From: Thermoproteota archaeon
Lineage (GTDB): Archaea; Korarchaeota; Korarchaeia; Korarchaeales; Korarchaeaceae
Reading direction: 5' to 3'
Assembly: GCA_003661365.1 (NCBI GenBank)
Contig: QMVZ01000001.1
Location: forward strand, 1 to 40,943
DNA: 40,943 bases
How positions within the stretch are numbered: the stretch's first letter is position 1; every line of letters starts with the position of its first letter. Positions 12,690 through 39,526 of this stretch are shown one piece after another. The notes beneath the pieces were generated by a model. That model was not told the DNA's origin. It worked only from the letters and a program-made list of their open reading frames with translations, and searched no databases. The translations under genes were made by a program, and so were the position numbers.

Positions 12690-12842
12690 TACAGATCCTC
12701 TCTAGGTAAATATCATATCTTAAATATCTCACAGCAGTCTTCGTTTAATCACTTCTACAAAGTTTTTGTTCAACCACCGAGCCGAACTTTTGTTTTAATC
12801 ATAATATTTTGTTTTTAGCATCACAAATTGCAACTTTAATAA

Positions 12843-13151: not shown

Positions 13152-13207
13152 CTAGATTGTGTGGTCATCTTTCTTATCTCCTCTCCTTGAGAAAAACCTG
13201 ATGACTA

Positions 13208-13582: not shown

Positions 13583-13645
13583 TCTCACTATTACATAAAA
13601 GATAAGATTACCGATGCGATAGGCTACAGAAATGTGCTGTAAATT

Positions 13646-14692: not shown

Positions 14693-14772
14693 ACTTTCCC
14701 CCAAACAGCTACAAGAGGAATAACTTTAAACTTTTTGAGAGATAGTCCACGTAACCTAAATTTGAGTCGCAC

Positions 14773-21070: not shown

Positions 21071-21449
21071 TTACCATCCATGCCTATGCCTGAACTCCTC
21101 TAATTCCATCCAAGATTCGTCTGAGGAAAGAGATCCCTTAAGATATTCCCTGACTACCTCTCTGACATTACCTTGAACTCCGATTATTACTTCAATTCCT
21201 AATGAATCAAAGAATGCACGCGCTCTCCTCCCCACATCATAGGCAAGTATCACGTTAACCCCTTTTTGTTTTAGAAAGGTAGGGATATCACCTGGAGAAT
21301 GCTCTATTAAAGGATTCTTGATGGCCTCCACTCCTCTTATTTTCTCCGTTCTTTATTTTAACTAAAGTGAAGAAGGGAGTTCTGCAAAAATGTGGACTAA
21401 CTTCTGAATCGAGTCCTCGTTCGTCTGCACTAGGAACAGCTATTTTCAT
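21071..21449 (-). pseudogene. NifX/NifB-C-terminal-like (dinitrogenase FeMo-cofactor-binding fold) domain protein, apparent +1 frameshift
   Basis: A 53-codon ORF not in the track, starting at the ATG at 21449 (MKIAVPSADERGLDSEVSPHFCRTPFFTLVKIKNGE...), supplies the N-terminal half. ORF 21071-21331 (..AIKNPLIEHSPGDIPTFLKQKGVNVILAYDVGRRARAFFDSLGIEVI..YLKGSL) supplies the C-terminal half in another frame. Confidence 0.7.
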
Positions 21450-21579
21450 CCTATTCGCCGTTTTGCTCGGGACCTTCTATAGTTAAAAAGACCACCTAAT
21501 AGTGTGAAGAGTATTTCTAGTGCGCCATGGGAAACGCTAAAAAGAGAAAGGCTGGTACAATTTTTGAAGGGATGTTCCC

Positions 21580-22461
21580 TTGTCAAACAACTTCAAGATC
21601 GCGGTAGCACTTGGACTCTTAGCTCTCCTGTTTTTGGTTCTTATGCCAAAGCTCCTTTGGAATCGCCTTAGAAGAGGCTATAATTTAACAACTTTTCGAT
21701 CAGATAACCTTAGTTATCAAAAATTGAAGGAACTTAGCGGTGCTGAGATCTTAGTCCTTGTAGACAATGAGCCAAGCAATTCCAACTTTGAATTAAAAGC
21801 TGCATGGGGAATTTCTTTATACGTGAAGGCTCAAAACGTTTCATTCCTGTTTGACACAGGTCCAAGTCCTGAAGTATTGGAGCACAATTGCAAGGTTCTA
21901 GGAGTTGATTTGAGCAATATATCCTTCGTTTTCATCTCACATGAGCACGGAGATCACACCGGAGGACTTCCATATGTTGCAAAGGTAGCTCCAAGCGTAC
22001 CTGTGTATGTTCCATCTGGGATGAGCTCCTCCGTTCGGAGAGGGATAGAGAGGCTTGGTTTTAACGTTGTTGAAGTGAAAGGCCCTCAACAAATGTTGGA
22101 AGGAATTGCAAGCACTGGTCCTCTTATGAGCGGATCTTTAGCTGAACATGGTCTCATCTTGAACTTACAAGGGAAAGGTATGGTCCTATTAGTCGGTTGT
22201 GCTCATCCAGGGGTTGATAGGATGTTGTTGAATGCTACCAATTTCTCAGAGGAGGTCTTTGGGGTTATTGGAGGATTTCATCTCATGGGAGCAAGCGAGA
22301 CAAGGTTAGAACAGATAGCTAAGGTTTTTGATGAACTCAGTCTTCAACTAATTGTTCCATTACATTGTTCTGGGAAAACTGCAAAGAGTTTCTTTAAAGA
22401 ACATTTTCCCCAGGCGTATCTAGACGCCCAGACAGGTAGTTTTCTGAAATTGGGTCCATGA
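21580..22461 (+). CDS. MBL-fold metallo-hydrolase (COG1237-type) with N-terminal TM anchor
   Basis: 293 aa. HxHxDH motif as SHEHGDHTGGL. ILVLVDNEP...AAWGISLYVKA...LFDTGPS is typical of the COG1237 group. TM helix IAVALGLLALLFLVLM. Confidence 0.8.
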   Translation: MSNNFKIAVALGLLALLFLVLMPKLLWNRLRRGYNLTTFRSDNLSYQKLKELSGAEILVLVDNEPSNSNFELKAAWGISLYVKAQNVSFLFDTGPSPEVLEHNCKVLGVDLSNISFVFISHEHGDHTGGLPYVAKVAPSVPVYVPSGMSSSVRRGIERLGFNVVEVKGPQQMLEGIASTGPLMSGSLAEHGLILNLQGKGMVLLVGCAHPGVDRMLLNATNFSEEVFGVIGGFHLMGASETRLEQIAKVFDELSLQLIVPLHCSGKTAKSFFKEHFPQAYLDAQTGSFLKLGP

Positions 22462-22496
22462 AGAAGCCTGACTCTATTGCTTCGCAGGAATATGGA

Positions 22497-22826
22497 CTAT
22501 TTTGTCTCCAGTTCTGCCAATCTTTTCTCCAAGTCCTCAAGTTGTCTCTTGAGCATGTCTCTTTGTTGTTTGAGCAACTTTATCTGATCTTCCTTGCTCG
22601 TTGGAGCCATGGGAGGCATCATAGTCGTTGGAGGCATCGTTGGAGCCTGTGGGTAAGGCAAGGGAGTAGTTGGAGCTGTTGGTGGAACCATACCGTACTG
22701 GAAAATTGGAGGTAGTCCTCCTGGTGATCTACCAAGCCAACCTGGTGAATAACCGAATCTTACCCATCCTGGAAGGCCTGTAGCATAATACATCCTTCTC
22801 CATCTGTATCCCATATCCATCACCAT
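22497..22826 (-). CDS. DUF5320-like small protein (aromatic/Gly-Pro-rich N-terminal part, coiled-coil C-terminus)
   Basis: 109 aa. YYATGLPGWVRFGYSPGW matches the DUF5320 core as I remember it. The C-terminus KEDQIKLLKQQRDMLKRQLEDLEKRLAELETK has heptad character. Confidence 0.65.
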   Translation of the reverse strand: MVMDMGYRWRRMYYATGLPGWVRFGYSPGWLGRSPGGLPPIFQYGMVPPTAPTTPLPYPQAPTMPPTTMMPPMAPTSKEDQIKLLKQQRDMLKRQLEDLEKRLAELETK

Positions 22827-22858
22827 TTATGTGATTATGCTAACAAATATTTAAGGAT
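22810..22858. repeat. left arm of a perfect 49-nt inverted repeat (partner 24360-24408)
   Basis: cccatatccatcaccatttatgtgattatgctaacaaatatttaaggat is the exact reverse complement of 24360-24408. It covers the TATA-like box, the spacer and the first 17 nt of the CDS. Confidence 0.95.
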
Positions 22859-23261
22859 TCCTGTTCTCGCTTAGAATCTCCACAGGCTGTTTAGAAGACA
22901 GCATCTGTTCCATTGCAACTATAACCTTATCCGATAACACATGTTCCAATTTGCATGCTTCCATCTTAGATTCTTTTCTTGATAGACCTAGGATTTCCTC
23001 TAAAAATCTCTGTATCAACAAATTCTTTCGCTGTATCTGTAAAGCTTGTCTGAACCCTTTCGCTTTCAATCTAGCTCCTATTCCAGGTTTATAATCCACT
23101 AGATCAAGTTCATGAAGTCTTCTAAACATTTCTGTGACTGATGGCGGCTTTATGTTTAATCTAGTAGCCACTTCAGTGGTTCTGATGTATCTGCGGTCCC
23201 CGCCTTTTTCAAAGAGCGTCTTTAGATAATCCTCTATTGCTCTCTTTGAGCACTTACTCAT
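22851..23261 (-). CDS. DtxR/MDR1-family metal-dependent transcriptional repressor (HTH + dimerisation domain, no SH3 domain)
   Basis: AIEDYLKTLFE...TTEVATRLNIKPPSVTEMFRRLHELDLV (wHTH) and ...RFLEEILGL...MEACKLEHVLSD (DtxR primary metal-site C/E/H motif). The ORF is open to 23390. I chose the ATG at 23261 (MSKCSKRAIEDYL), which removes the overlap with the divergent gene. Confidence 0.85.
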   Translation of the reverse strand: MSKCSKRAIEDYLKTLFEKGGDRRYIRTTEVATRLNIKPPSVTEMFRRLHELDLVDYKPGIGARLKAKGFRQALQIQRKNLLIQRFLEEILGLSRKESKMEACKLEHVLSDKVIVAMEQMLSSKQPVEILSENRNP

Positions 23262-23323
23262 TGCTATCAATAAATTGGGATAATGCACATTATTATATTT
23301 TTTGGATTTTAGTTTAAAGAATA

Positions 23324-24322
23324 ATGGTAAACATAGTATACGGTCCAGTTCCCTCTTGGAGACTGGGAAGAAGCCTAGGAATAGACGCAACGCTTCTACC
23401 CAAGGCTTGTACTTTTGATTGTGTGTATTGTCAGCTTGGTAAAACCATCAGAAAGCTATCCTCTCCAAAAGAGCTAAATCCAGTTATCGGAGTTGAAGAG
23501 CTGATTAAGCAGTTAGAACGTAAGATAGAGAAGGTTGGTCCTGATTCGATAGATTTCATCACCTTCTCAGGAACTGGGGAACCTACTCTCAATCCTAACA
23601 TTGGAAACATGATCTCTGCTGTGAAAAGATTGATCCCTTTCAAACCGGTTGCTGTTCTAACGAATTCGTCCTTAGTGTACTTGGATGAAGTTAGAAATGC
23701 GCTCTCAAATGCAGACCTGGTATCCTTTAAGCTAGATGCAGCAGATCAGCAGACATTTGAAGAAATAAACAGACCTGTTGCCAACATTCCAAACATAAAG
23801 GAAATCATTGAAAGTATTAAGAAATTCAAAGCTGGTCATCATGGAATACTTGCCCTCCAGATCATGTTAGTCGATAGCATCAAGCCTGATTTCAGGGTTA
23901 ATTTCAAGGGAGAGGCACTGAACTGCTTAATTGAGGGTATTGCTGAAATACAACCGGATCAAATTCAGCTAAACACTCCAACTAGACCTGTGATGGAGAA
24001 ACACATCAAACCCGTCAATTCTACTATACTAAGTGCTGTAGAGGAGAGAATCAAGGAAGTAACTCCGGAATCAGAGGTAATAAGGGTCGATGAAGAGAGA
24101 GTTCCACTAAAATCGATAAAAAGAGAAAAGAAGCCTATAGAAGAGCTAAGGGGAGATATACTTGCTCTGTTAAAGAGAAGACCCTGTCGAGCAGTTGACA
24201 TATCCATTGCATTAGGAACTGAGAAAAGAGAAATTGAAGCAATCGTAAGATCAATGGTTAAAGAAGGAGTAATTATAGAGATAAGAAGTGAAAGAGGGAC
24301 TTACTATACTTACTCAAGTTGA
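23324..24322 (+). CDS. radical SAM protein with C-terminal winged-helix-like extension
   Basis: 332 aa. CTFDCVYCQLG (CxxxCxxC) and SGTGEPTL. The C-terminal LLKRRPCRAVDISIALGTEKREIEAIVRSMVKEGVIIE looks like a wHTH. Confidence 0.85.
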   Translation: MVNIVYGPVPSWRLGRSLGIDATLLPKACTFDCVYCQLGKTIRKLSSPKELNPVIGVEELIKQLERKIEKVGPDSIDFITFSGTGEPTLNPNIGNMISAVKRLIPFKPVAVLTNSSLVYLDEVRNALSNADLVSFKLDAADQQTFEEINRPVANIPNIKEIIESIKKFKAGHHGILALQIMLVDSIKPDFRVNFKGEALNCLIEGIAEIQPDQIQLNTPTRPVMEKHIKPVNSTILSAVEERIKEVTPESEVIRVDEERVPLKSIKREKKPIEELRGDILALLKRRPCRAVDISIALGTEKREIEAIVRSMVKEGVIIEIRSERGTYYTYSS

Positions 24323-24359
24323 AACCTTGCACTACATGGTACACAGAGGATCGAGAACC

Positions 24360-24408
24360 ATCCTTAAATATTTGTTAGCATAATCACATAAATGGTGATG
24401 GATATGGG
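24360..24408. repeat. right arm of a perfect 49-nt inverted repeat (partner 22810-22858)
   Basis: atccttaaatatttgttagcataatcacataaatggtgatggatatggg. The TATA-like ttaaatattt starts 28 nt upstream of the ATG at 24392. Confidence 0.95.
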
Positions 24409-24715
24409 GTGGGTGCAAGGAAGGTGGATCGGAAGGAGATGGTGGTACTACCCGCCTGTTGCGCTTCCATTAGCAAGTAGAGGGTATATTTACATAGGAC
24501 CCTGTAGATGTGGCTTTGGACCGAACGCATTTTACCTCACTCCAACTGGACAGATCGTCCATGCTTGGCAACTGACCGGTCTAGCTTTCCCTGGATTTTT
24601 GCCATGGACAATGACACCCATATCTGAGAGAAACATGCTTGAAACTGAGAAGAAGATGTTAGAGGAAGAACTTAGGTACATAGAAGAGAGATTGAAACAG
24701 ATTGGGGGCGAGTAA
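24392..24715 (+). CDS. DUF5320-like small protein, paralog 2
   Basis: 107 aa. Shares MVMDMG and an aromatic/Arg-rich N-terminus (GWVQGRWIGRRWWYYPP) with paralog 1. Contains GPCRCGFGP and the coiled-coil C-terminus ERNMLETEKKMLEEELRYIEERLKQIGGE. Confidence 0.6.
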   Translation: MVMDMGWVQGRWIGRRWWYYPPVALPLASRGYIYIGPCRCGFGPNAFYLTPTGQIVHAWQLTGLAFPGFLPWTMTPISERNMLETEKKMLEEELRYIEERLKQIGGE

Positions 24716-24716
24716 C

Positions 24717-24875
24717 ATGAGATGGGGAAGATGGTTCAGACCATTTAGGGGTTGGCGTGGAGGACCCTTTTATTGGACCGTTCCTCCTTGCTATTATCTC
24801 TTCTACCCAGCATATTCAGTATATAGAGTTCCTTGGCCTCTAGCTTATCGCCAATACGGTTATTTCTTTTGGTGA
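24717..24875 (+). CDS. unannotated 52-aa aromatic/Arg/Pro-rich small ORF
   Basis: MRWGRWFRPFRGWRGGPFYWTVPPCYYLFYPAYSVYRVPWPLAYRQYGYFFW. The ATG is 1 nt after the upstream stop, GGGGG lies about 10 nt upstream, and the stop is 6 nt before the next ATG. It is below the 60-aa cutoff of the ORF track. Confidence 0.5.
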   Translation: MRWGRWFRPFRGWRGGPFYWTVPPCYYLFYPAYSVYRVPWPLAYRQYGYFFW

Positions 24876-24881
24876 TGTAAA

Positions 24882-25406
24882 ATGGTTGAGAAAATAGTGG
24901 TAGCCAGCCAGGGGCTTGGAGGTCTGGATGATTATGTGTCTCCAGTTTTTGCAAGATGCAACAGCTTCACCGTAGTGGAAGTTGAGGATGGACATGTTCT
25001 AGAAGTCACTACGCTAAATAATCCCTCAAAATTGGCACCATCTGGAGCAGGAATACAGGCAGCCCAGTTCATTGCTTCTACGGGGTCTAAGGTTGTAATT
25101 GCAGGTAACTTCGGGCCTAATGCACTCACCGCACTCTCTTATATGGGAATAAGAGCGGTAACTGCTGCTTATGGTTTCAAAGTAAGAGAAGCCGTTGAGA
25201 AATATTTAGAGGGAAGCTTGCAAACTCGCGGTATTAGACCACCTATGGTACCAGCCCCCGGATTGCTACAAGTACCATCCTATACTCCAACGTTACCAAA
25301 GGAGAAGGAAATTGAAATGTTGAGGGCAAGGATGGGTTTCATCAAAAGGAGGCTTAGGGAAATAGAGGATAGACTTAAAGAGTTAGGTGAGAAGGAAGAA
25401 GGGTGA
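24882..25406 (+). CDS. NifX/NifB-like domain protein with DUF5320-type coiled-coil C-terminal extension
   Basis: 174 aa. The NifX-like core is KIVVASQGLGGLDDYVSPVFARCNSFTVVEVEDG...GAGIQAAQFIASTGSKVVIAGNFGPNA...YLEGSL. It is followed by a Pro-rich linker and KEKEIEMLRARMGFIKRRLREIEDRLKELGEKEEG. Confidence 0.8.
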   Translation: MVEKIVVASQGLGGLDDYVSPVFARCNSFTVVEVEDGHVLEVTTLNNPSKLAPSGAGIQAAQFIASTGSKVVIAGNFGPNALTALSYMGIRAVTAAYGFKVREAVEKYLEGSLQTRGIRPPMVPAPGLLQVPSYTPTLPKEKEIEMLRARMGFIKRRLREIEDRLKELGEKEEG

Positions 25407-25410
25407 TTTT

Positions 25411-25836
25411 TTGGAAAGAATAGTTGTTTCTTCAAGCCCTCCAGGAGGGCTAGATAGCTTAGTAGATTATAGATTTGCTAGGTGCAGCCACTTCACAGTG
25501 GTAGATGTAGAAAACGGTAAGATCATTAACGTAAGTGTAGTACCAAACCAATCTGCCATGACTCCTCATGGAGCAGGAATACAGGCAGCCCAGGTTGTGG
25601 CATCACTAGGGGCTCAAGTAGTTATAACTGGAAACGTCGGGCCCAATGCCTTTTCCTCGTTGCAAAGTTTAGGTATTAAAATCTACTTAGGAGCAGGAGG
25701 AATAAGCGTTAAAGATGCCATTATGAGGTACTTATCCGGCTCTCTCAGCCCCGCTTCTGGACCAGGATCGCCTGGCAGAGGAATGGGGAGAGGCATGGGC
25801 AGGGGTATGGGCACAGGTAGAGGAAGACGGTGGTAG
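25411..25836 (+). CDS. NifX/NifB-like domain protein with C-terminal (GRGM)n Gly/Arg tail
   Basis: The core is RIVVSSSPPGGLDSLVDYRFARCSHFTVVDVENG...GAGIQAAQVVASLGAQVVITGNVGPNA...YLSGSL. The tail is GPGSPGRGMGRGMGRGMGTGRGRRW. I chose the TTG at 25411 by alignment to the upstream paralog; the ORF track starts at the GTG at 25387. Confidence 0.8.
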   Translation: MERIVVSSSPPGGLDSLVDYRFARCSHFTVVDVENGKIINVSVVPNQSAMTPHGAGIQAAQVVASLGAQVVITGNVGPNAFSSLQSLGIKIYLGAGGISVKDAIMRYLSGSLSPASGPGSPGRGMGRGMGRGMGTGRGRRW

Positions 25837-25957
25837 CTGCCGCGAGGATTCCTACAAATTGATTGTAGGATAATTGGGTTGCGGACCTTGAGTTGGAGGC
25901 GAGAGGAAGTTGTACTCAAGCTACTTGTCTGAAATTCAATTGCCAAAAGAAACTCAA

Positions 25958-26863
25958 ATGGACTCGAACAGAGAAGGACCGAAAGTCATAGCAGTTACTG
26001 GAGGTAAGGGAGGCACCGGAAAAACAACAATTGCTGTAAACCTTGCCTTCTACTTCTCACAGGCTGGCAGAAAGGTCCTACTAGCTGATTGTGATGTCGA
26101 CGCTCCAAGTGTCGCAACGGTTCTTGGAGTCGAGATGGAGAACGGAGAAGAGGTAAGACAATTCCTCCCTATTTTTGATGAGAACAAGTGCATACGCTGT
26201 GGAGAATGCTCAAGAGCATGCAGAATGCACGCAATACTTCACGTTCCTGATAAAACGCCAGTTTTGTTCCCTGAATTGTGTTTAGGCTGCAGGGCATGTG
26301 CTATCGTATGTCCTACAGATGCAGTTCTAGATGGAAGAAAAGTCGTCGGATGGGTCTATGAAGCAAAAGCATATGGAATAGATTTGCTCATAGGCGAATT
26401 AAAGCTGAACGAGAGAGAGTCCGAGGCAATAATAAAGAAGGTAAAGGAGAAGGCAATGCGTTTATCAGAAGAGAGAGGATATGACCTCATTATCATAGAT
26501 ACAGCCCCTGGAGCTCATTGCGACGTAGCTTTATCGTTAAAGGATTCGGATTTTGTGCTCGCTGTGACTGAACCTACTCCCTTTGGGATGCATGATTTAG
26601 ACCTGATACTTGAGTTAGCTAACTTGTTAAAACTGAGGCATGCAATTGTGGTGAACAGGGCTGATCTCCCAGGAGATCATCAACTTTTGAAGGAGATCTG
26701 TGAGAAAAATTCTTCTAGATTGATTGGAGAGGTTCCTGTAGATGATAAAGTAGTGCGGAGCCATATAATGTCAAGACCTTTACTGTTGGACTTTCCAGAT
26801 AGTCCAGCAACAAAGGCGATCCTAGATCTTGCAAAAGAAATAGAGGAGGAGCTTGGCCTATGA
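25958..26863 (+). CDS. MinD/ParA-superfamily P-loop ATPase with inserted 2x[4Fe-4S] ferredoxin domain (COG1149-type)
   Basis: Deviant Walker [11 protein letters not shown]. Cluster motifs [11 protein letters not shown] and [13 protein letters not shown] chose the ATG at 25958 ([16 protein letters not shown]); the ORF is open from 25910. Confidence 0.88.
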
Positions 26864-27747
26864 AGGAAGTCGTAATAGTGAGCGGGAAAGGAGGAGTAGG
26901 GAAAACTACAGTATCAGCCTCTCTAGGATGGTTAATGGCAGAGAGAATGAAGCTGGTGATGGTAGATGTGGATGTGGACGCTCCTAACCTTTCTTTGGTA
27001 ATTGGTGGCTCTCTAAAGAATTCGCTAATGATAGAAGCTGCTGAAAAGGCATTTGTTTTTGAGGAAAAATGCAAAGGTTGCGGAATCTGCTCAGAAAAAT
27101 GTCCAGAGGAAGCTATTCAGATAATTGGGCACAAAGCCGTTGTTTCAAGCTTATTCTGCAGTGGATGTGGGGTTTGCTCTTTGGTTTGCCCTGAAAAGGC
27201 GATTGAATTGAGATTAGTTGCTAACGGAAGGCTCAATCTATACGAGAGTCATTCTGGATCTGTATTACTCGTAGGAAAACTGATGATCGGGGAATCTGGC
27301 TCAGGAAAACTTGTGTCCGAAGTCAAAGAGAGAGCAAGGCAAGTGGCTAAGGAGAAAGGCGCGGATTTGGTGCTAATAGATGGTCCTCCTGGTGCAGGGT
27401 GCCCAGCGATTTCGGCAGTTTCAGGGGCTACTCATGCAATAATGGTTACAGAGCCAATACCTGCGGCCTTTAAAAATCTCAAGAGGATTTTTTCAATAAT
27501 AAGACATTTTGGGGCAAATCCAGGTCTAATAATCAATAAAGCCGACTTGTATGAACCAATAAAGCAAGAAGAGATTTACTTTGCTAAGAAGGAGGGCATA
27601 GAAGTGCTAGGCGAGATACCCATGGATAACTCGGTTCCACAATCTCTAGCCTTAGGTATGCCAGTTGTCAGTGCATTTCCTGATGCTCCAGCTTCTATAG
27701 CTATTAAAAAGATCTTTGAAAATCTGATAAATTTCTTAGAGGGTTAA
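26860..27747 (+). CDS. MinD/ParA-superfamily P-loop ATPase with inserted 2x[4Fe-4S] ferredoxin domain, paralog 2
   Basis: 295 aa. [38 protein letters not shown] overlap with paralog 1. Confidence 0.88.
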
Positions 27748-28124
27748 TCCTCTGTTTCCTCCTCCCTTAACATAACAGGGGCTTGTGGCACTATGAACAG
27801 CTCTCTTCCTTCGGAAATTGCTTTTATTATCTTTTTCCTTCCACTTGCGACTAACCTCCAAACAGTCCCACGAGAGACTCCCATTCTCTTAGCTGCTTCC
27901 TCCTGACTGAGATCTTCTCCGTCTACAAGTCTAAGGGCTTCAAACTCGTCGTATGATAGCAAGATTGGTTCCTTTGGCTCCATAATCGCCCCTTGAGGAA
28001 GAAAGGGCGCGAAATGTCTTATTGAGGGTATTTCACTGATCCATCTTGGCTTCCATGGTCTTCCTCTTCTCCTATGCAATCCCCTCTTAGGTCCTCTTTC
28101 CGGAGCAATCAGTTCTATCGCCAA
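27744..28124 (-). CDS. DUF134 (UPF0251) family predicted DNA-binding protein
   Basis: 126 aa. [13 protein letters not shown]...[51 protein letters not shown] matches the DUF134 consensus (sigma-70 region-4-like HTH). TTG start. Confidence 0.85.
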
Positions 28125-28317
28125 GAATTAAAAAGCTGTTTCTCTTTTTAAAAGGATCCTTTTCACACCCTTAACAAAATGTGTTTACAGAGTTCTAGAT
28201 TCTTATAACTCACTTAGATGCTAAGTACGCACTCCTGATAAAGTCTCTTAAATGAAGCATGATGTACCAAATATTGTAAGGAACCCTCAATTCTGATTTC
28301 GCATCATGTTGAGAAAG

Positions 28318-28357
28318 TTAGGTTAACCTAAACCTTTATATGTTAGGCAAGCCTAAC
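28318..28357 (+). promoter_or_regulatory. feo promoter: two DtxR-box-like palindromes flanking a TATA-like box
   Basis: TTAGGTTAACCTAA (28318-28331) is a perfect 14-bp palindrome. cctttatatg is the A/T box. GTTAGGC-aa-GCCTAAC (28342-28357) has 7-bp arms. The half-sites resemble the TTAGG/CCTAA halves of the DtxR/IdeR iron box. Confidence 0.6.
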
Positions 28358-28422
28358 TTCATCATGTGTGTTACCGGTGTCCAATCTTTCGCTACTGCAT
28401 GAAGCGCTCTAGGGGGGATGCT

Positions 28423-28674
28423 ATGGATAAAGATCAGGGAGTTAGGAAGCTTAGCACGTTAAATGTGGGAGATAGAGGTATAGTAGTTAATCTAGCTGGA
28501 AAAGGAGCTATTATCAAAAGACTAATTGAAATGGGCCTAGTTAGGGGTGAAGAGGTCAAGGTAACAGACAAATCTCCACTTGGGGATCCCATAGAAGTTG
28601 AAGTGAAGGGATACAGGCTCTCTTTGAGGAGGAAAGATGAGGCTGATCACGTCTTCGTGGAGGTGGTAGACTAG
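28423..28674 (+). CDS. feoA: FeoA-family ferrous iron transport protein A
   Basis: LSTLNVGDRGIVVNLAGKGAIIKRLIEMGLVRGEEVKV...PIEVEVKGYRLSLRRKDA is a typical FeoA SH3-like domain. I chose the ATG at 28423; the ORF is open from the GTG at 28366. Confidence 0.85.
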   Translation: MDKDQGVRKLSTLNVGDRGIVVNLAGKGAIIKRLIEMGLVRGEEVKVTDKSPLGDPIEVEVKGYRLSLRRKDEADHVFVEVVD

Positions 28675-28675
28675 C

Positions 28676-28912
28676 TTGTACAAGCAAGCACCCATCTCAA
28701 TGTCAATGCTTCCATCAGGATCCAGATGCGTTGTTAGGGGCATAGTTGCTGGTAGGGGGCTTATTAAGAGATTAGTTGAATTGGGATTAGAGCCAGGATC
28801 CACTGTAAAAGTTGTCAGAAATGAGAGAGGGCCTCTTCTAATAGAGATAAAGGGCTCTAGGCTTGCTTTGAGCAGAGGTATAGCTTCAAAGGTGCTTGTG
28901 GAGGTGTCTTGA
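28676..28912 (+). CDS. feoA: FeoA-family protein, second copy
   Basis: 78 aa. LPSGSRCVVRGIVAGRGLIKRLVELGLEPGSTVKVV..PLLIEIKGSRLALSRGIA. The start is uncertain (TTG at 28676 or ATG at 28700). Confidence 0.82.
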   Translation: MYKQAPISMSMLPSGSRCVVRGIVAGRGLIKRLVELGLEPGSTVKVVRNERGPLLIEIKGSRLALSRGIASKVLVEVS

Positions 28913-29592
28913 TGAAGAGGATACGCGTTGCCCTTGCTGGAAATCCAAATGTTGGAAAGTCTGTTATCTTCAACGCCTTAACGGGGGGAAGGCAGCACGT
29001 AGGTAATTGGCCAGGGAAGACCATTGAAAAGAAGGAAGGAATTTGCTACCATAGGGGATATGAGCTATACATAGTGGATCTCCCAGGAATATACAGTCTA
29101 ACAACTTTTTCACCAGAAGAACTCATAGCTCGCGACTACATCTTAAACGAGAAGCCTGATGTAGTGGTTAACATAGTTGATGCCTCTAACCTTAGAAGGA
29201 ACCTCTATCTCAGCATTCAGCTCATGGAATTAGGAGCAAGGCTCATAATTGCCCTTAACAAGAGTGATCTAGCTGAATCGCTTGGATATGAGATAGACGA
29301 GAAGAGGTTAGAGAAAAACTTGGGAGTTCCCGTTGTTCCTACAGTAGCCACTAGGAAAATAGGCTTACAGGAACTTTGCGACAAGATAGTTGAAGTTGTT
29401 GAGAGAGGGGCTCCTCCTTCATCCATAACTTACCCTGAAATAGTAGAAGCAGAGATTGAGAGGATAAGAAAGGTGTTAGAAAAGGATCCAATGATAAGAG
29501 AGAGCTATAACACAAGATGGCTTGCTATAAAGCTGTTAGAAGGAGATGAAGAAGCTGAGCGAAGGATATTAGCTAAATTAAAAGGTGGTTAA
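28909..29592 (+). CDS. feoB: FeoB N-terminal part: G-domain plus beginning of helical domain
   Basis: 227 aa. G1 GNPNVGKS, G3 DLPG, G4 NKSD. Ends inside the helical domain (..WLAIKLLEGDEEAERRILAKLKGG*). Confidence 0.9.
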   Translation: MMKRIRVALAGNPNVGKSVIFNALTGGRQHVGNWPGKTIEKKEGICYHRGYELYIVDLPGIYSLTTFSPEELIARDYILNEKPDVVVNIVDASNLRRNLYLSIQLMELGARLIIALNKSDLAESLGYEIDEKRLEKNLGVPVVPTVATRKIGLQELCDKIVEVVERGAPPSSITYPEIVEAEIERIRKVLEKDPMIRESYNTRWLAIKLLEGDEEAERRILAKLKGG

Positions 29593-30913
29593 TTTGGAAG
29601 AATTAAGAAAGGTCCTAAATGAAGCTAAGAATAGGTTAATTGAGAGTTTTGGCCTTGAACCGGATGTTCTTCTTCCAGATATAAGGTATAGAGTGATAGA
29701 GGAAATAGTAAGTACATCAATCATTAGAGAGAAGGTAGAACTCACGCTAACTGATGTTATAGATGATGCTATTCTGAATAAGTACTTGGGAATACCGGTA
29801 TTCCTCAGCTTGGCTTGGATGATGTTCCAGTTCACTTTCTCAGTAGCTGCACCAATAGTTGACGCTGTCGACATGTTTTTCAGCTGGATAGGCGAAATTA
29901 TAGGCGAGTATATCTCTAACAGCTTTCTGGCTTCTTTCCTTGCCGATGGGATTGTTGGGGGCCTTGGAACAATTTTAGTTTTCGTTCCAAACATATTTTT
30001 CCTTTTTTTGGCCCTTTCAGCATTGGAGGACTCTGGATACTTGGCCAGAGTCGCATTCATCTTTGATAGATTGATGAGAAAATTTAGACTAAGCGGCAGA
30101 TCGATAATACCTCATCTGATAGGTTTCGGATGTAATGTACCTGGAGTTATGGCAACCAGAACAATAGCTGGAGAGAATGAAAGGATCCTAACTGCTATTA
30201 CTAATCCGCTAATATCGTGCAGCGCAAGACTTCCAGTATATGTGCTCTTTGCTGGAGTTTTCTTCCCAGATAATAGCCCTACTATAATATTCTCGCTTTA
30301 TATGCTCGGCATAGTGCTAGCATTCCTGATAAGCTTTGTTGTAGGAAGATTCTTCTTGAAAGGAAAGCCCTCTCCTCTTATAATGGAATTACCAGAGTAC
30401 TCAATGCCCGAAACCAGAACTCTGTTGATGCACATGTGGGAAAGAGGCATAATGTTTGTAAAGAAGGCTGGAACTGTTATATTGGCGGGAGTCATTGCTA
30501 TATGGGCACTGAGCAACCTGCCGCTAGGAGTTAAAAGCGTAGAAGAATCGTATCTGGGAATACTAGGTCATATAATGGAGCCTTTGTTCAAACCATTCGG
30601 CTGGGATTGGAGAATAGCTGTTTCCATAGTCTTCGGCTTTGTAGCTAAGGAGATCGTCGTAGGTGCTCTAGGCATGATATATGGTGTTGAGGAAGAGGCC
30701 CTTGAACATGTCATATCTCAAACCATGACTCCTTTGTCAGCTTACGCCTTTATGACCTTTGTACTAATATATGTGCCGTGTGTTGCGACACTGGCTGCTA
30801 TAAAGGGAGAGCTTGGCTGGAAATGGGCAATTTTCTCCGCAATTTATGAGGTAATTCTGGCATATCTGGTTGCTCTAATGATTATGGTTATTGGAGGGGT
30901 GATGTTGAGTTGA
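29585..30913 (+). CDS. feoB: FeoB C-terminal part: rest of helical domain plus membrane permease domain
   Basis: 442 aa polytopic. TDVIDDAILNKYLGIPVFL and gate-motif-like regions. Frame is +1 relative to 28909-29592, with an 8-nt overlap GTGGTTAA. Confidence 0.9.
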   Translation: MVNLEELRKVLNEAKNRLIESFGLEPDVLLPDIRYRVIEEIVSTSIIREKVELTLTDVIDDAILNKYLGIPVFLSLAWMMFQFTFSVAAPIVDAVDMFFSWIGEIIGEYISNSFLASFLADGIVGGLGTILVFVPNIFFLFLALSALEDSGYLARVAFIFDRLMRKFRLSGRSIIPHLIGFGCNVPGVMATRTIAGENERILTAITNPLISCSARLPVYVLFAGVFFPDNSPTIIFSLYMLGIVLAFLISFVVGRFFLKGKPSPLIMELPEYSMPETRTLLMHMWERGIMFVKKAGTVILAGVIAIWALSNLPLGVKSVEESYLGILGHIMEPLFKPFGWDWRIAVSIVFGFVAKEIVVGALGMIYGVEEEALEHVISQTMTPLSAYAFMTFVLIYVPCVATLAAIKGELGWKWAIFSAIYEVILAYLVALMIMVIGGVMLS

Positions 30914-31416
30914 AAAGAGCTTTGATCTTATATAGCATCCTGTTAAGCCTTATATTCATTTTCTATGGATCGATGGATCTTCTTTGCGGCATTGTTAGAT
31001 GGTTCATGCCTGCACGTGCGCTTCCAGACTTGGTCCAGACCTCATTGAGTTTCGATTTGGGGAGAGGCAGGGTCCCTGCAATTACGCTCGACCCTGGCAT
31101 GGGCCTGAGTCTCCTTGTGATCGGATTCTCCCTCTTATATGGAGGACTTGGCAGCTTGAAAGGGAAGTTAAAGGGTGGAGAGAGCTTTTTCCTGGCGGGA
31201 TCGATTTTAGCGTTAATTCTACTTGTGCTTCAAGTCCTGATATTATTTGCAAACGGAGTAGAAACCTATGCATTAAGGATCGAGGACTTTTCCGGATGGA
31301 CGCCCCTGGAAGATCTCAATGAAGGCCTTGTTCTCGGCCTTCTGGCAATACCAACTTTAAGTTCGTCTGCTAAGAGGCTCAGATCTTTAAGAAAAACTGG
31401 ATACCAAAAAGACTGA
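30910..31416 (+). CDS. hypothetical integral membrane protein (about 4 TM)
   Basis: 168 aa with hydrophobic segments. TTG start overlaps the feoB stop, so it is likely co-transcribed. Confidence 0.5.
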   Translation: MKRALILYSILLSLIFIFYGSMDLLCGIVRWFMPARALPDLVQTSLSFDLGRGRVPAITLDPGMGLSLLVIGFSLLYGGLGSLKGKLKGGESFFLAGSILALILLVLQVLILFANGVETYALRIEDFSGWTPLEDLNEGLVLGLLAIPTLSSSAKRLRSLRKTGYQKD

Positions 31417-37748: not shown

Positions 37749-38143
37749 TCCAAGTCCTCAACAACCTTGAGGCACTCAGCTGGACACCACTCAATGCAGG
37801 CCCCACATAGGGTACACTTTATCGCTACTCTTCTAGTGGGATGTATCTTTATTGCTCCATATGGACAAGCATTTAGACAAGCAGCACAACCGTCGCACTT
37901 ATCTGCGTTAACCATTATGACGCCCCTTGAGTCTCGATATATGGCTTCTCTTTGGCAGGCCTTCATGCACATGGCATCTTCGCAATTCCTACACGCAATA
38001 AGTATATCCAGGTGATCTTGAGTTATTGCCCCGATACGCGCCCTGTTCGGATCCAATACCTTATCGAAAGTAAAAGAGCAGGCTAGTACGCAAAGTTTGC
38101 ATCCAGAACACTCGAGAGGATCTGCATATATGTATTTAGGCAA
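37745..38143 (-). CDS. 4Fe-4S poly-ferredoxin-like protein (four Cys cluster motifs)
   Basis: 132 aa. CSGCKLCVLACS, CRNCEDAMCMKAC, CDGCAACLNACP, CTLCGACIEWCP. TTG start. Confidence 0.85.
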   Translation of the reverse strand: MPKYIYADPLECSGCKLCVLACSFTFDKVLDPNRARIGAITQDHLDILIACRNCEDAMCMKACQREAIYRDSRGVIMVNADKCDGCAACLNACPYGAIKIHPTRRVAIKCTLCGACIEWCPAECLKVVEDLD

Positions 38144-38360
38144 CTAAACACCTCATAACACCGAACTTCAACTTTTGGCTAGCGGAGCAAATGTATACCT
38201 GTATCCAGTTTGGGATTTCCTGTGATAATATTACGCGAATTTGTTGCCGTTAATTCGTAAAAAACCTCCTCATTGGAAGCTCTGCTTAATCCTTCAATTG
38301 CTTCTTGATTCCGATGTAATATAATTCAATATTTTTAACTCCAGATTAAGGAAACAACCG

Positions 38361-39524: not shown

Positions 39525-39526
39525 AC

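What the first reader, a model, noticed from the sequence alone, without database searches (positions are those of the whole stretch)
21071..31416. Ten-kb island joining NifX-like carriers, DUF5320, MinD-ferredoxin ATPases, DUF134, DtxR, radical SAM and Feo: candidate uncharacterised metallocluster handling system
There are no nitrogenase genes here, yet the island holds three NifX/NifB-C-terminal-like domain genes and two paralogous MinD-type ATPases with inserted 2x[4Fe-4S] domains. It also holds two DUF5320-like proteins, a 52-aa aromatic sORF and a DUF134 putative regulator. A DtxR-like repressor is divergent from a radical SAM gene that has a wHTH tail. A COG1237 MBL protein and feoA-feoA-feoB with DtxR-type operators complete the set. 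The core (DUF5320-2, sORF, NifX, NifX, then MinD-Fd x2) is packed with 1-6 nt gaps or overlaps. Co-occurrence of NifX-like, COG1149 and DUF134 genes is a recurring neighbourhood in anaerobes whose function is, to my knowledge, still unassigned. Here it is physically tied to ferrous iron uptake and an iron-responsive repressor. That argues for a role in iron or Fe-S cluster storage, delivery or maturation, with P-loop ATPases as insertases and NifX-like domains as cluster carriers.
Basis: partly seen in the sequence, partly recalled or inferred. Interest (0 to 1): 0.75.

Follow-up and report, generated by a model that had tools for sequence, protein, structure and literature searches.

The report
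Archaeal iron-sulfur handling gene island

Summary
The described genes are all present. Corrections:
- The first NifX-like gene carries a +1 frameshift.
- FeoB is split into two ORFs.
- 73-121 nt separate the second intact NifX-like gene from the first ATPase gene.
- The two "DUF5320" genes fall just below Pfam's cut-off.
- The 52-aa aromatic sORF is a real gene under purifying selection that no gene caller reported.

The window comes from a Korarchaeia-like MAG.

The core is two NifX-like carriers of the MTH1175/ORP type followed by two MinD-type ATPases, each with a 2x[4Fe-4S] insertion. It is the archaeal counterpart of the Desulfovibrio Orp8-Orp3-Orp4 complex, whose function is unresolved.

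In 80 species-level loci anchored on the ATPase:
- NifX-like genes are adjacent in 69.
- A second ATPase is adjacent in 55.
- DUF134 occurs in 42, DUF5320 in 29-39, FeoB in 12, DtxR in 8.
- One specific radical-SAM family occurs in about 16.

DtxR boxes lie upstream of feoA here. In Thermococci, a korarchaeote and an Asgard archaeon they also lie directly upstream of NifX-like or ATPase genes.

Best reading: iron or Fe-S buffering and delivery. The G/R/aromatic-rich DUF5320 proteins and the sORF may act as IssA-like tails supplied as separate proteins. This is a new variant of a known kind. The mechanism is inferred.

The parts
21071..21449 (-). NifX-like gene a (Nitro_FeMo-Co), disrupted by a +1 frameshift and so split into two ORFs
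   Evidence: Pfam hits on both ORFs. There is a 1-nt insertion relative to intact orthologues in L090 and L091.
21580..22461 (+). Metallo-beta-lactamase-fold protein with an N-terminal hydrophobic segment
   Evidence: Lactamase_B and Lactamase_B_2. Best PDB match is 7DCK at 8e-43, then TM1679. The same family occurs in 13 of 80 related loci.
22497..22826 (-). DUF5320-like protein a: a cationic, aromatic and Gly-rich N-terminus, a Pro-rich linker, and a C-terminal coiled coil
   Evidence: Pfam DUF5320 at 26.0 bits, below the cut-off of 27. Family HMM and architecture; composition.
22851..23261 (-). DtxR/MntR-family metal-dependent repressor (136 aa from the ATG), co-directional with DUF5320a
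   Evidence: Fe_dep_repress at 60 bits and Fe_dep_repr_C at 48 bits. Gene call of 136 aa.
22810..22858 (.). Arm 1 of a 49-bp perfect inverted repeat. It is the promoter (TTAAATATTT box) plus the first 6 codons of DUF5320a.
   Evidence: The sequence is conserved in both paralogues of four species.
23324..24322 (+). Radical SAM enzyme (CxxxCxxC at C29/C33/C36) with a C-terminal winged-helix domain; divergent from dtxR
   Evidence: Pfam. A specific family recurs in the related loci with single-sequence E-values of 1e-34 to 1e-70. AlphaFold pLDDT is 92.5; Foldseek hits PFL-AE, NifB, viperin and LIAS about equally.
24360..24408 (.). Arm 2 of the 49-bp inverted repeat (promoter and 5' end of DUF5320b)
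24392..24715 (+). DUF5320-like protein b: an aromatic and cationic N-terminus with a CRCGFGPNAFY motif, then a C-terminal coiled coil
   Evidence: Pfam DUF5320 at 22.7 bits, below cut-off. The motif is shared with L008, L011 and L013.
24717..24875 (+). 52-aa sORF: 21 W/Y/F, 7 Arg, 5 Gly, 7 Pro, 1 Cys, pI 10.1. It starts 1 nt after the DUF5320b stop and ends 6 nt before NifXb.
   Evidence: Intact in L090, L091 and L092. pN/pS 0.17-0.23. Composition. Not called by the gene callers.
24882..25406 (+). NifX-like carrier b with a Pro-rich linker and a DUF5320-like coiled-coil tail
   Evidence: Nitro_FeMo-Co at 65 bits. PDB MTH1175 at 1.1e-16 and ORP at 5e-14. The tail matches the DUF5320 HMM.
25387..25836 (+). 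NifX-like carrier c with a 31-aa Gly/Arg tail (GRGMGRGMGRGMGTGRGRRW, pI 12)
   Evidence: Nitro_FeMo-Co at 75 bits. PDB 2WFB (ORP) at 9e-24 and MTH1175 at 5.5e-20. Composition.
25958..26863 (+). MinD-type ATPase 1 with an inserted 2x[4Fe-4S] ferredoxin domain (Orp3/Orp4-like). The ORF opens at TTG 25910.
   Evidence: Pfam. Invariant GKGGxGK, 8 Cys and PGAHC. AlphaFold pLDDT 92; best folds are FlhG, FleN and MinD, then ApbC, NifH and HypB.
26860..27747 (+). MinD-type ATPase 2 with an inserted 2x[4Fe-4S] domain; 4-nt overlap with ATPase 1
   Evidence: Pfam. 31% identity to ATPase 1.
27744..28124 (-). DUF134 (sigma-70 region-4-like HTH) putative regulator. It is convergent with ATPase 2 and divergent from feoA.
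   Evidence: DUF134 at 89.5 bits. PRK04217 at 124.6 bits against a cut-off of 115.
28318..28356 (.). Two tandem DtxR-type operators, TTAGGTTAACCTAA and TTAGGCAAGCCTAA, 67-105 nt upstream of the feoA ATG
   Evidence: The only two exact TTAGG-N4-CCTAA matches in the window. Conserved in L090 and L091. The same box lies upstream of feo in Hadarchaeota and Thermococcus.
28423..28674 (+). FeoA 1
   Evidence: FeoA at 75.7 bits.
28676..28912 (+). FeoA 2
   Evidence: FeoA at 69.2 bits.
28909..29592 (+). FeoB G-domain (separate ORF)
   Evidence: FeoB_N at 223.8 bits and FeoB_Cyto.
29585..30913 (+). FeoB membrane domain (separate ORF)
   Evidence: Gate at 150 bits and FeoB_C at 68 bits.
30910..31416 (+). 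Small membrane protein overlapping the feoB stop codon (MJ0565 family)
   Evidence: Precomputed Pfam PF27307 MJ0565. No hit in the local Pfam copy.

Best explanation
The island is a Korarchaeia-type version of the anaerobe-specific ORP-like cluster, joined to a DtxR-controlled Feo importer.

Shown:
- There are two intact NifX-like proteins of the MTH1175/ORP type. One has a Gly/Arg tail and the other a coiled-coil tail.
- They are followed by two paralogous deviant-Walker-A ATPases, each with an inserted 2x[4Fe-4S] domain.
- These ATPases keep a near-invariant Cys seven residues after the Walker-B Asp.
- The core recurs with DUF134 and DUF5320 across archaea and bacteria.

Inferred mechanism:
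1. Feo brings in Fe(II), and DtxR shuts feo off when iron is replete.
2. The NifX-like domains hold a labile, non-covalently bound Fe-S species, as the related domains of IssA, ORP and MrpORP do.
3. The DUF5320-like proteins and the 52-aa peptide supply cationic, aromatic and Gly-rich segments like the IssA tail. They are recruited through coiled coils to neutralise and organise anionic iron-sulfide.
4. The two ATPases form an ATP-dependent dimer, as other ATPases of this class (MinD, NifH, Mrp/NBP35) do. Their ferredoxin domains and interface Cys would couple nucleotide state and electrons to loading or release of Fe-S material to client proteins.
5. DUF134 is the local transcription factor.
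For: - Homology to the ORP complex. NifXc matches PDB 2WFB (D. gigas ORP) at 9e-24 and MTH1175 at 5.5e-20; NifXb matches MTH1175 at 1.1e-16. Orp3 and Orp4 are described as paralogues each with two [4Fe-4S] motifs, co-purifying with Orp8 and receiving Fe-S clusters from MrpORP (PMC6345978).
- IssA is an IPR003731 domain plus a Pro-rich then cationic, aromatic and Gly-rich tail, and it stores thioferrate (PMC5524996). Window segments with the same composition are listed.
- Conservation in 80 ATPase-anchored species loci: NifX-like within 3 kb in 69; paired ATPases in 55; DUF134 in 42; DUF5320 in 29 within 3 kb and 39 within 10 kb; plain Mrp/MinD in 31; MBL in 13; FeoB in 12; DtxR in 8.
- Reciprocal test with a DUF134 anchor: 55 of 80 metagenome loci have DUF5320, NifX-like or ATPase genes within 3 kb.
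- Domain fusions link the parts: DUF134-DUF5320, DUF134-GRG-Zn-ribbon, NifX-GRG-Zn-ribbon, and NifX-DUF5320 coiled coil.
- Iron regulation. Exact DtxR boxes occur 26 times in 1.21 Mb of loci against about 1.2 expected. They lie upstream of feo, and directly upstream of NifX-like, ATPase or radical-SAM genes in L010, L012, L028, L031 and L051.
- In M. voltae, two IssA homologues, FeoAB and DtxR rise together on FeS2 (PMC8516115).
- ATPase: AlphaFold pLDDT 92 with a MinD/FlhG/ApbC/NifH fold.
Against: - In this window DtxR boxes precede only feoA, not the core operon.
- No Mrp/NBP35 carrier, which is part of the Desulfovibrio ORP set, lies in the island.
- Feo or DtxR adjacency holds for only 10-15% of related loci, and the sampled loci are phylogenetically non-independent.
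- NifX-like genes next to the ATPases in Thermococci lack IssA-type tails, so IssA itself is not shown to work with these ATPases.
- The resemblance of DUF5320 and the sORF to the IssA tail is compositional only. RGG-like segments also bind nucleic acids.
- The published phenotype of orp down-regulation is altered cell morphology, not an Fe-S defect (PMC8359166).
- D. gigas ORP was isolated with a Mo-Cu-S cluster, not an Fe-S one.
Confidence: 0.55

Rival explanations
1. Mo/W-sulfide handling. The NifX-like proteins would carry thiomolybdate or thiotungstate-type heterometal clusters, as isolated D. gigas ORP does. The ATPases would help deliver Mo or W to pterin enzymes. Feo adjacency would be incidental.
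For: The best PDB match of NifXc is ORP, which binds a [S2MoS2CuS2MoS2] cluster (PMC6345978). The authors studying A. fulgidus AF2378-2380 guessed a role in Mo-cofactor enzymes (PMC3949148). The radical SAM gene has weak hits to MoaA and a W-cofactor maturase.
Against: Those radical SAM hits score 34-38 bits against cut-offs of 284-380. The island holds no Mo/W transporter or pterin gene. The recurring transporters are Feo and CDF, and the recurring operator is the DtxR box. [quoted passage not shown]
Confidence: 0.12
2. Cell-division or spatial-positioning system. The MinD-like ATPases would act as positioning ATPases, as first proposed for the ORP complex. The other proteins would be cargo or adaptors, and the DUF5320 coiled coils would be structural.
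For: The best structural matches are FlhG, FleN and MinD. Inactivation of OrpR gives morphological defects (PMC8359166). MrpORP localises to the cell pole (PMC6345978).
Against: No MinC, MinE, FtsZ or CdvABC genes lie in the island. An inserted di-cluster ferredoxin domain and a switch-II Cys are not features of positioning ATPases. The cluster is present in tiny DPANN and CPR genomes alongside metal transporters. The authors themselves call the role unclear.
Confidence: 0.1
3. Sensor and regulator module. The NifX-like domains would sense Fe-S or redox status for the DUF134 transcription factor, with the DUF5320 G/R segments contacting nucleic acid. The ATPases would reset the sensor. The cluster would regulate rather than store or deliver.
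For: DUF134 is fused to DUF5320 or to the G/R motif plus Zn-ribbon in several loci. The DUF5320-then-DUF134 gene pair is the most frequent arrangement around DUF134 (35 of 80). OrpR, the regulator of the orp operons in Desulfovibrio, senses redox through an Fe-S cluster (PMC8359166).
Against: One to three NifX-like genes plus two ATPases is heavy machinery for a sensor. AF2378-2380 are constitutively highly expressed, and IssA-clade proteins are abundant structural proteins. The one apparent DUF134-NifX fusion (L078) spans a run of N.
Confidence: 0.1
4. Coincidental juxtaposition. The ORP-like core, the dtxR / radical SAM / MBL genes and the feo operon would be independent units that happen to be neighbours in this lineage.
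For: There are several strand switches and at least five promoters. DtxR boxes lie only at feoA in this window. Most related loci lack Feo and DtxR.
Against: The same extended set recurs in different gene orders in Hadarchaeota and Hodarchaeaceae (L009, L014, L018), Promethearchaeota (L040, L041, L060) and metagenome loci L097, L111 and L152. FeoB density near the anchor is about 1.3 per 100 kb. I estimate, without measuring it here, that this is more than 10 times a genome-wide rate. DtxR boxes occur at core genes elsewhere.
Confidence: 0.13

Closest known systems
[quoted passage not shown]
   Same: Both have two paralogous MinD-type ATPases, each with two [4Fe-4S] motifs, encoded next to single-domain Di-Nase/NifX-like proteins. 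NifXc matches D. gigas ORP at 9e-24. Both are restricted to anaerobes. In both, function is unresolved but Fe-S clusters are bound.
   Different: The island has no Mrp/NBP35-Di-Nase fusion (MrpORP) and no sigma54/OrpR/IHF control. Instead it has DUF134, DtxR, two DUF5320-like proteins, an aromatic sORF, a radical SAM-wHTH gene, an MBL gene and an adjacent Feo system. The host is an archaeon.
IssA iron-sulfur storage protein of Pyrococcus furiosus (PF2025)
   Same: Both have an IPR003731/Nitro_FeMo-Co domain of the MTH1175 group. Both have Pro-rich and cationic, aromatic and Gly-rich low-complexity segments with pI above 10. Both are linked to iron and sulfide supply.
   Different: In IssA the 70-aa tail is in the same chain. 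Here NifXc has only a 31-aa G/R tail, NifXb has a coiled coil, and the aromatic/cationic segments lie on separate proteins (DUF5320a, DUF5320b and the sORF). Thioferrate binding is untested. IssA is not known to need MinD-ferredoxin ATPases.
NifX/NafY/NifB-C-terminal domain of nitrogenase cofactor maturation
   Same: The domain fold is the same, and so is the general idea of a non-covalent metallocluster carrier. A radical SAM gene lies nearby.
   Different: There are no nif genes. PDB matches are to ORP and MTH1175, not to NafY or NifB. The radical SAM enzyme lacks the ligands for NifB's auxiliary clusters.
SIMIBI-class metallochaperone and reductase ATPases (NifH, Mrp/NBP35/ApbC, HypB)
   Same: Both have a deviant Walker A and a dimer-forming fold. 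A Cys in switch II aligns with NifH Cys132. The predicted structure matches ApbC, NifH and HypB.
   Different: A complete di-cluster ferredoxin domain is inserted after switch I. There is no CxxC motif of the Mrp/NBP35 type. No solved structure has this insertion.

Membership tests
ORP complex (Desulfovibrio orp cluster) | Two paralogous MinD-type P-loop ATPases, each with two [4Fe-4S] ferredoxin motifs (Orp3/Orp4) | tested here: met
   Pfam CbiA/ParA plus Fer4 on both genes. Eight invariant Cys and a deviant Walker A. Related loci in Desulfobacterota have the same order of NifX-like gene then two ATPases (L027, L053, L075). No direct comparison with the DVU2103/2104 sequences was possible.
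ORP complex (Desulfovibrio orp cluster) | Single-domain Di-Nase protein homologous to the orange protein (Orp8) | tested here: met
   NifXc against PDB 2WFB (ORP): E = 9.2e-24 over residues 8-127. NifXb: 5.3e-14.
ORP complex (Desulfovibrio orp cluster) | MrpORP (an Mrp/NBP35 P-loop domain fused to a Di-Nase domain) | tested here: not met
   NCBIfam NF041136 gives only partial hits of 41-57 bits against a cut-off of 450. There is no Mrp-type gene in the island.
ORP complex (Desulfovibrio orp cluster) | Divergent operons under sigma54 and the enhancer-binding protein OrpR | tested here: not met
   No sigma54 activator domain on any ORF scanned. The host is an archaeon. DUF134 and DtxR are the regulators present.
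ORP complex (Desulfovibrio orp cluster) | Physical Orp3-Orp4-Orp8 complex that binds Fe-S clusters | not testable with these tools
   Needs anaerobic co-purification.
IssA (thioferrate storage protein) | N-terminal IPR003731 / Nitro_FeMo-Co globular domain | tested here: met
   Pfam PF02579 at 65 and 75 bits.
IssA (thioferrate storage protein) | Long C-terminal tail in the same chain: Pro-rich, then cationic, aromatic and Gly-rich, with pI above 10 | tested here: inconclusive
   The NifXc tail is 31 aa with 11 Gly, 6 Arg and pI 12, but only 1 aromatic residue. The NifXb tail is Pro-rich plus a coiled coil. The aromatic and cationic segments lie on DUF5320a, DUF5320b and the sORF.
IssA (thioferrate storage protein) | Placement in the IssA clade of the IPR003731 tree | tested here: inconclusive
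   No IssA sequence was available. The nearest solved relatives are MTH1175, which the IssA authors place in the IssA clade, and ORP. No tree was built.
IssA (thioferrate storage protein) | Binds thioferrate and forms nanoparticles | not testable with these tools
   Needs biochemistry, XAS and TEM.
NifX/NafY/NifB nitrogenase cofactor maturation | Genomic association with nifHDK or nifEN | tested here: not met
   No nitrogenase Pfam family on any ORF of at least 110 aa in the 40.9-kb window. The rest of the genome was not examined.
NifX/NafY/NifB nitrogenase cofactor maturation | NifB-type radical SAM enzyme with ligands for auxiliary K clusters | tested here: not met
   Only the CxxxCxxC motif plus two other Cys, of which one (C288) is invariant. 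There is no nifB hit in NCBIfam. Foldseek ranks NifB alongside PFL-AE, viperin and LIAS without discrimination.
DtxR/IdeR-controlled iron uptake regulon | DtxR repressor with an N-terminal HTH and a metal-binding dimerisation domain | tested here: met
   PF01325 at 60 bits and PF02742 at 48 bits. NCBIfam cannot separate MntR from DtxR, and all hits are below cut-off.
DtxR/IdeR-controlled iron uptake regulon | Palindromic TTAGG-N4-CCTAA operators in target promoters | tested here: met
   Two exact boxes upstream of feoA are the only ones in the window. They are conserved in related species and upstream of feo in other phyla. No box lies at the core operon here.
DUF5320 (PF17253) | Score at or above Pfam's gathering threshold, with the N-terminal MPxGDGTGP...GRG motif | tested here: not met
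   26.0 and 22.7 bits against 27, matching profile positions 62-99 only. Canonical members from related loci score 84-93 bits. The window proteins have a different, aromatic N-terminus.
DUF5320 (PF17253) | C-terminal coiled coil, and a gene position just upstream of DUF134 or NifX-like genes | tested here: met
MinD cell-division ATPase | Deviant Walker A and the MinD fold | tested here: met
   GKGGTGKT. Foldseek TM of 0.7-0.77 (target-normalised) to MinD, FlhG and FleN. NCBIfam minD models score 60-86 bits against cut-offs above 200.
MinD cell-division ATPase | Membrane-targeting C-terminal helix and MinC/MinE partners | not tested
   No Min partners among the ORFs scanned. The C-terminal helix was not analysed.
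NifH-like ATP-dependent reductases | Inter-subunit [4Fe-4S] cluster ligated by Cys97 and Cys132 | tested here: inconclusive
The Cys97 region is replaced by the ferredoxin insertion.

The most novel reading that the evidence does not exclude
The ORP-like cluster may be the anaerobic world's general iron-sulfide storage system, playing the role ferritin plays for oxidised iron. On this reading, the NifX-like domains nucleate an anionic Fe-S polymer or cluster pool. Detachable IssA-like tails, namely the DUF5320 proteins and short aromatic peptides such as the 52-aa sORF, coat and organise it through coiled-coil assembly. A NifH-like heterodimer of ATPases with built-in ferredoxins drives deposition and reductive release, using ATP and electrons. 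The system would be wired to Feo or CDF transporters and to DtxR, and would be conserved from Asgard, Korarchaeia and DPANN archaea to CPR bacteria and sulfate reducers.
Probability: 0.2. Interest if true: 0.85.

Novelty: new variant of a known kind. Interest (0 to 1): 0.6.

Why it matters
How strict anaerobes store and traffic iron and sulfide is poorly understood. IssA is the only described Fe-S storage protein, and the ORP complex has had no assigned function since 2011.

This island and its relatives tie those two lines of work together. They add three untreated components: DUF134, DUF5320 and a specific radical SAM family. They also give a regulatory handle, the DtxR boxes, and transporter links to Feo and CDF.

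The cluster is present in Asgard archaea, DPANN and CPR organisms with very small genomes, which suggests it is a basic function. The reading yields concrete experiments in tractable relatives such as Thermococcus, Methanococcus and Desulfovibrio.

Tried and rejected
- Near-identical contigs (L001-L005, at least 99.6% identity) gave no power to test the sORF. I fetched three species at 77-81% ATPase identity instead.
- My iterated DUF134 HMM drifted onto a Zn-ribbon and CDF transporters. I rebuilt a strict model and recounted.
- The literature search on 'DUF134' by word start returned DUF1343, DUF1345 and DUF1349 papers. A whole-word search found almost nothing on DUF134 or DUF5320.
- Fievet et al. 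2011 (PMC3133258) is not held in the library, so statements about the ORP complex rest on later papers by the same group.
- A cluster look-up for taxonomy gave no names. Taxonomy came from homologues of HMG-CoA reductase and the radical SAM protein.
A narrower alignment worked but is biased toward DPANN/CPR-type DUF134.
- Foldseek on the radical SAM model does not separate PFL-AE, NifB, viperin, LIAS and TYW1, so no chemistry can be assigned. A NifB-like role was rejected for lack of auxiliary-cluster Cys.
- I looked for IssA-type long tails on NifX-like genes next to the ATPases. Only tandem NifX-NifX fusions turned up.
- No Rfam families or tRNAs are in the window.
- The sigma-70 promoter scan is uninformative for an archaeon.
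- A paper on iron sulfides in Thermococcales added nothing about these genes.

Full report
**What is there**

- A NifX-like gene, split into two ORFs (21071-21449, minus strand).
- A metallo-beta-lactamase-fold gene (21580-22461).
- A DUF5320-like gene (22497-22826, minus strand).
- A DtxR/MntR-family repressor (22851-23261, minus strand).
- Divergent from it, a radical SAM gene with a TrmB-like winged helix at residues 280-328 (23324-24322).
- A second DUF5320-like gene (24392-24715).
- A 52-aa sORF (24717-24875).
- Two NifX-like genes (24882-25406 and 25387-25836).
- Two MinD-type ATPase genes, each with two CxxCxxCxxxC motifs (25958-26863 and 26860-27747).
- A convergent DUF134 gene (27744-28124, minus strand).
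- feoA, feoA, a FeoB G-domain ORF, a FeoB membrane ORF, and a small membrane protein that overlaps the feoB stop codon.

No nitrogenase family is found on any larger ORF of the window.

The window is contig JAMKQM010000101.1 of MAG GCA_024281195.1. Near-identical copies come from Guaymas-type hydrothermal sediments. Its HMG-CoA reductase is 79% identical to that of Ca. Methanodesulfokora. Its radical SAM protein is 77% identical to one from a 'Ca. Korarchaeota archaeon'. The host is therefore Korarchaeia-like.

**Corrections to the observation**

- The first NifX-like gene carries a 1-nt insertion relative to intact 125- and 132-aa orthologues in two related species. The same frameshift is present in four independent assemblies that span this gene.
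- FeoB is split into two ORFs, here and in close relatives. It is one 639-aa gene in a Hadesarchaeon.
- The DUF5320 hits score 26.0 and 22.7 bits against a threshold of 27 and cover only the C-terminal helix.
- Between the second intact NifX-like gene and the first ATPase there are 73-121 nt rather than 1-6.
- The small membrane protein after feoB belongs to the MJ0565 family (precomputed Pfam).

**The sORF is real**

No gene caller reported it. It is nevertheless an intact, in-frame ORF at the same position in three species whose ATPase is 77-81% identical to the window's. Its pN/pS is 0.17-0.23, the same as the neighbouring NifX-like gene at 0.20. Of its 52 residues, 21 are W, Y or F, 7 are Arg, 5 are Gly, 7 are Pro and 1 is Cys; its pI is 10.1.

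**Regulatory DNA**

The only two exact TTAGG-N4-CCTAA palindromes in 40.9 kb lie 25 bp apart, 67-105 nt upstream of feoA. This is the classical DtxR/IdeR half-site arrangement. The boxes are conserved in related species.

A 49-bp perfect inverted repeat (22810-22858 and 24360-24408) consists of the promoter and the first six codons of each of the two DUF5320-like genes. The same sequence, with a TTAAATATTT box about 31 nt before the ATG, is kept in both paralogues of all four species. The two genes are therefore very probably co-expressed as leaderless mRNAs.

**Conservation**

I ran a pattern-plus-tblastn scan of one genome per species (GTDB) with an alignment of the ATPase. It returned 80 loci from:
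- Asgard archaea (Promethearchaeota, Hel-, Hod-, Odin-, Heimdall-, Sifarchaeum).
- Hadarchaeota, Thermococci, Bathyarchaeia, Korarchaeota-like Thermoproteota and Methanosarcinales.
- Many DPANN lineages and CPR bacteria.
- Desulfobacterota.

I annotated these loci with HMMs iterated from the window proteins.

| Family | Loci out of 80 |
|---|---|
| NifX-like within 3 kb | 69 |
| Two adjacent ferredoxin-ATPases | 55 |
| DUF134 (strict model) | 42 |
| DUF5320, within 3 kb / within 10 kb | 29 / 39 |
| Plain MinD/Mrp ATPase | 31 |
| The MBL family | 13 |
| FeoB | 12 |
| DtxR | 8 |

The radical SAM family recurs in 16 of these loci plus 2 further fetched loci (L008, L009). Single-sequence E-values run from 1e-34 to 1e-70, and several copies include the winged-helix tail.

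Hit density falls steeply with distance from the anchor. For NifX-like genes it drops from 43 per 100 kb in the first 2 kb to 1-2 per 100 kb beyond 4 kb. Many contigs are short, so the counts are lower bounds. The loci are also not phylogenetically independent.

The commonest order is DUF134, DUF5320, one to three NifX-like genes, then the two ATPases. The extended set recurs in other orders.
- Hadarchaeota and Hodarchaeaceae: a DtxR-FeoA fusion, FeoB, DUF134, MBL, DUF5320, NifX, a NifX-NifX fusion, then the two ATPases (L009, L014, L018).
- Promethearchaeota: FeoB and FeoA on one strand; DUF5320 and DtxR on the other; then the radical SAM gene, an Mrp/MinD gene, NifX, the two ATPases and DUF134 (L040, L041, L060).

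A reciprocal scan of metagenome contigs anchored on DUF134 found DUF5320, NifX-like or ATPase genes within 3 kb in 55 of 80 loci. DUF5320 occurred in 35, NifX-like in 37, the ferredoxin-ATPase in 11 and FeoB in 5. Several of these loci show a divergent arrangement: feoB and feoA on one strand, and DUF5320, DUF134 and NifX on the other.

**Iron regulation elsewhere**

Exact DtxR boxes occur 26 times in 1.21 Mb of fetched loci, against about 1.2 expected. Removing the near-identical copies of the window leaves 18 boxes, of which 15 lie at starts of island-type genes: 11 by the count, plus 4 upstream of feoA in L090 and L091.

Besides feo promoters, boxes lie directly in front of NifX-like, ATPase or radical-SAM genes in five loci:
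- an Asgard Sifarchaeum (L010);
- a korarchaeote (L012);
- Thermococci (L028, L031, L051).

So the core is predicted to be DtxR-controlled in some lineages, although not visibly in this window.

**What the parts are**

NifX-like proteins. NifXc matches the solved orange protein of D. gigas (2WFB, 9e-24) and MTH1175 (5.5e-20). NifXb matches MTH1175 at 1.1e-16. NafY and NifB structures are not matched at E of 0.01 or better.

ATPases.
- They have an invariant deviant Walker A (GKGGxGK), eight invariant ferredoxin Cys, and a near-invariant Cys in DTAPGAHC (GAGC in the paralogue).
- The AlphaFold model (pLDDT 92) matches FlhG, FleN and MinD best, then ApbC, NifH and HypB. No solved structure contains the insertion.

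DUF5320.
- Canonical members in related loci score 84-93 bits. They consist of an MPxGDGTGPxGxGPMTGRGxGYC motif, GRGFGRG repeats, a Pro-rich linker and a C-terminal coiled coil.
- The window's two proteins keep the linker and coiled coil. Their N-termini are aromatic and cationic instead (YYATGLPGWVRFGYSPGW and CRCGFGPNAFY), and these motifs recur in other archaeal loci.

Tails and fusions.
- NifXb ends in a DUF5320-type coiled coil.
- NifXc ends in GRGMGRGMGRGMGTGRGRRW.
- Elsewhere there are fusions of DUF134-DUF5320, DUF134-G/R motif-Zn-ribbon, NifX-G/R tail-Zn-ribbon, and CDF transporter-Zn-ribbon. These fusions tie the families together functionally.

**Comparison with what is known**

The Desulfovibrio vulgaris ORP complex consists of:
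- Orp3 and Orp4, paralogues each with two [4Fe-4S] motifs;
- Orp5;
- Orp8, the orange protein;
- Orp9, also called MrpORP.

Orp3, Orp4 and Orp8 co-purify and accept Fe-S clusters from MrpORP. [quoted passage not shown] The role of the complex is still called unclear, with a cell-division link suggested (PMC6345978 and PMC8359166). The homologous A. fulgidus genes AF2378-2380 are constitutively highly expressed (PMC3949148).

IssA of P. furiosus has the same globular domain. [quoted passage not shown] Its authors place MTH1175 in the IssA clade and note that W, G and R, rather than a fixed sequence, are what is conserved in tails (PMC5524996). In M. voltae, two IssA homologues, FeoAB and DtxR all rise on pyrite, together with thioferrate-like EPR signals (PMC8516115). 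I found no paper treating DUF134, DUF5320 or the ATPases in this context.

**Interpretation**

The island is a member of the ORP-like cluster type. Two defining features are met. The MrpORP fusion and sigma54 control are not.

The most likely function is buffering, storage or delivery of a labile Fe-S species fed by Feo. The following steps are inferred, not shown:
- the NifX-like domains act as non-covalent carriers;
- the DUF5320 proteins and the sORF act as IssA-like tails supplied as separate proteins and recruited by coiled coils;
- the ATPase pair acts as a nucleotide- and redox-gated loader or unloader, using its interface Cys and ferredoxin domains;
- DUF134 acts as the local regulator.

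Arguments against:
- no DtxR box lies at the core operon here;
- Feo or DtxR linkage holds in only 10-15% of loci;
- NifX-like genes beside the ATPases in Thermococci lack IssA-type tails;
- the published ORP phenotype is morphological;
- ORP was isolated with a Mo-Cu cluster;
- G/R-rich segments can equally bind nucleic acid.

The radical SAM enzyme cannot be assigned. Its model (pLDDT 92.5) matches PFL-AE, NifB, viperin, LIAS and TYW1 about equally. It has only the CxxxCxxC cluster motif plus one invariant Cys in the winged helix, so a NifB-like role is rejected.

**Verdict**

It is a new variant of a known but functionally unresolved kind of system. It comes with several testable leads: the sORF, the DUF5320-as-tail idea, DtxR boxes at core genes in other lineages, and the switch-II Cys.

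Noticed in passing
window 24717-24875 (+): A 52-aa, extremely aromatic and cationic ORF that every gene caller missed. It is conserved and under purifying selection in three related species (pN/pS about 0.2).
   Followed up: yes
window 21071-21449 (-), insertion near 21340-21350: The first NifX-like gene has a +1 frameshift relative to intact orthologues in L090 and L091. The same frameshift is present in four independent assemblies that span the gene. It is either a pseudogene or a recurrent error at an A-rich run.
   Followed up: partly
window 22810-22858 and 24360-24408: A 49-bp perfect inverted repeat made of the promoter and first six codons of the two DUF5320-like genes. It brackets the dtxR and radical SAM pair, and the sequence is conserved across four species. 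This could reflect gene conversion or a shared operator.
   Followed up: partly
window 28909-30913 (+): FeoB is encoded as separate G-domain and membrane-domain ORFs with an 8-nt overlap, here and in close relatives. It is a single gene in the Hadesarchaea locus L009.
   Followed up: partly
window 30910-31416 (+): An MJ0565-family small membrane protein is translationally coupled to feoB. From memory, not checked here, MJ0565 neighbours the FeoB gene MJ0566 in M. jannaschii. It may be an archaeal Feo accessory subunit.
   Followed up: no
window 37745-40174: A ferredoxin, a class-V aminotransferase (IscS/NifS-like) and a NifU_N plus FeS_assembly_P protein (IscU-like) lie about 7 kb downstream of the island. 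General Fe-S assembly genes are therefore nearby, separated from it by unrelated metabolic genes.
   Followed up: no
loci L062, L066, L067, L071, L077, L086, L089: In CPR and DPANN loci, a CDF (Cation_efflux plus ZT_dimer) transporter is fused to a CxCxxCG...GxPC...CPxC zinc ribbon and lies next to the NifX-like and ATPase genes. The same ribbon also occurs free-standing and fused to DUF134 or NifX-like proteins.
   Followed up: partly
loci L009, L014, L016, L018: Hadarchaeota-type loci encode a tandem NifX-NifX fusion joined by a Pro-rich linker, and a DtxR-FeoA fusion protein directly upstream of FeoB.
   Followed up: no
locus L075 11719-13305: In Desulfosediminicola, the NifX-like gene and two ATPases are followed by an ApbC/Mrp-type carrier (291 bits to MrpORP, below cut-off) and a DsrC/TusE-family sulfur-relay protein. 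This hints at a sulfur-trafficking link.
   Followed up: no
window 31533-32870 (+): A HemN-like radical SAM gene lies downstream of the feo operon. Homologues also occur near the cluster in L009, L018 and L021.
   Followed up: no
window 11190-14704: DUF2193, an FTR_C fragment and methenyl-H4MPT cyclohydrolase (MCH) genes are present, consistent with an H4MPT C1 pathway in this Korarchaeia-like host.
   Followed up: no
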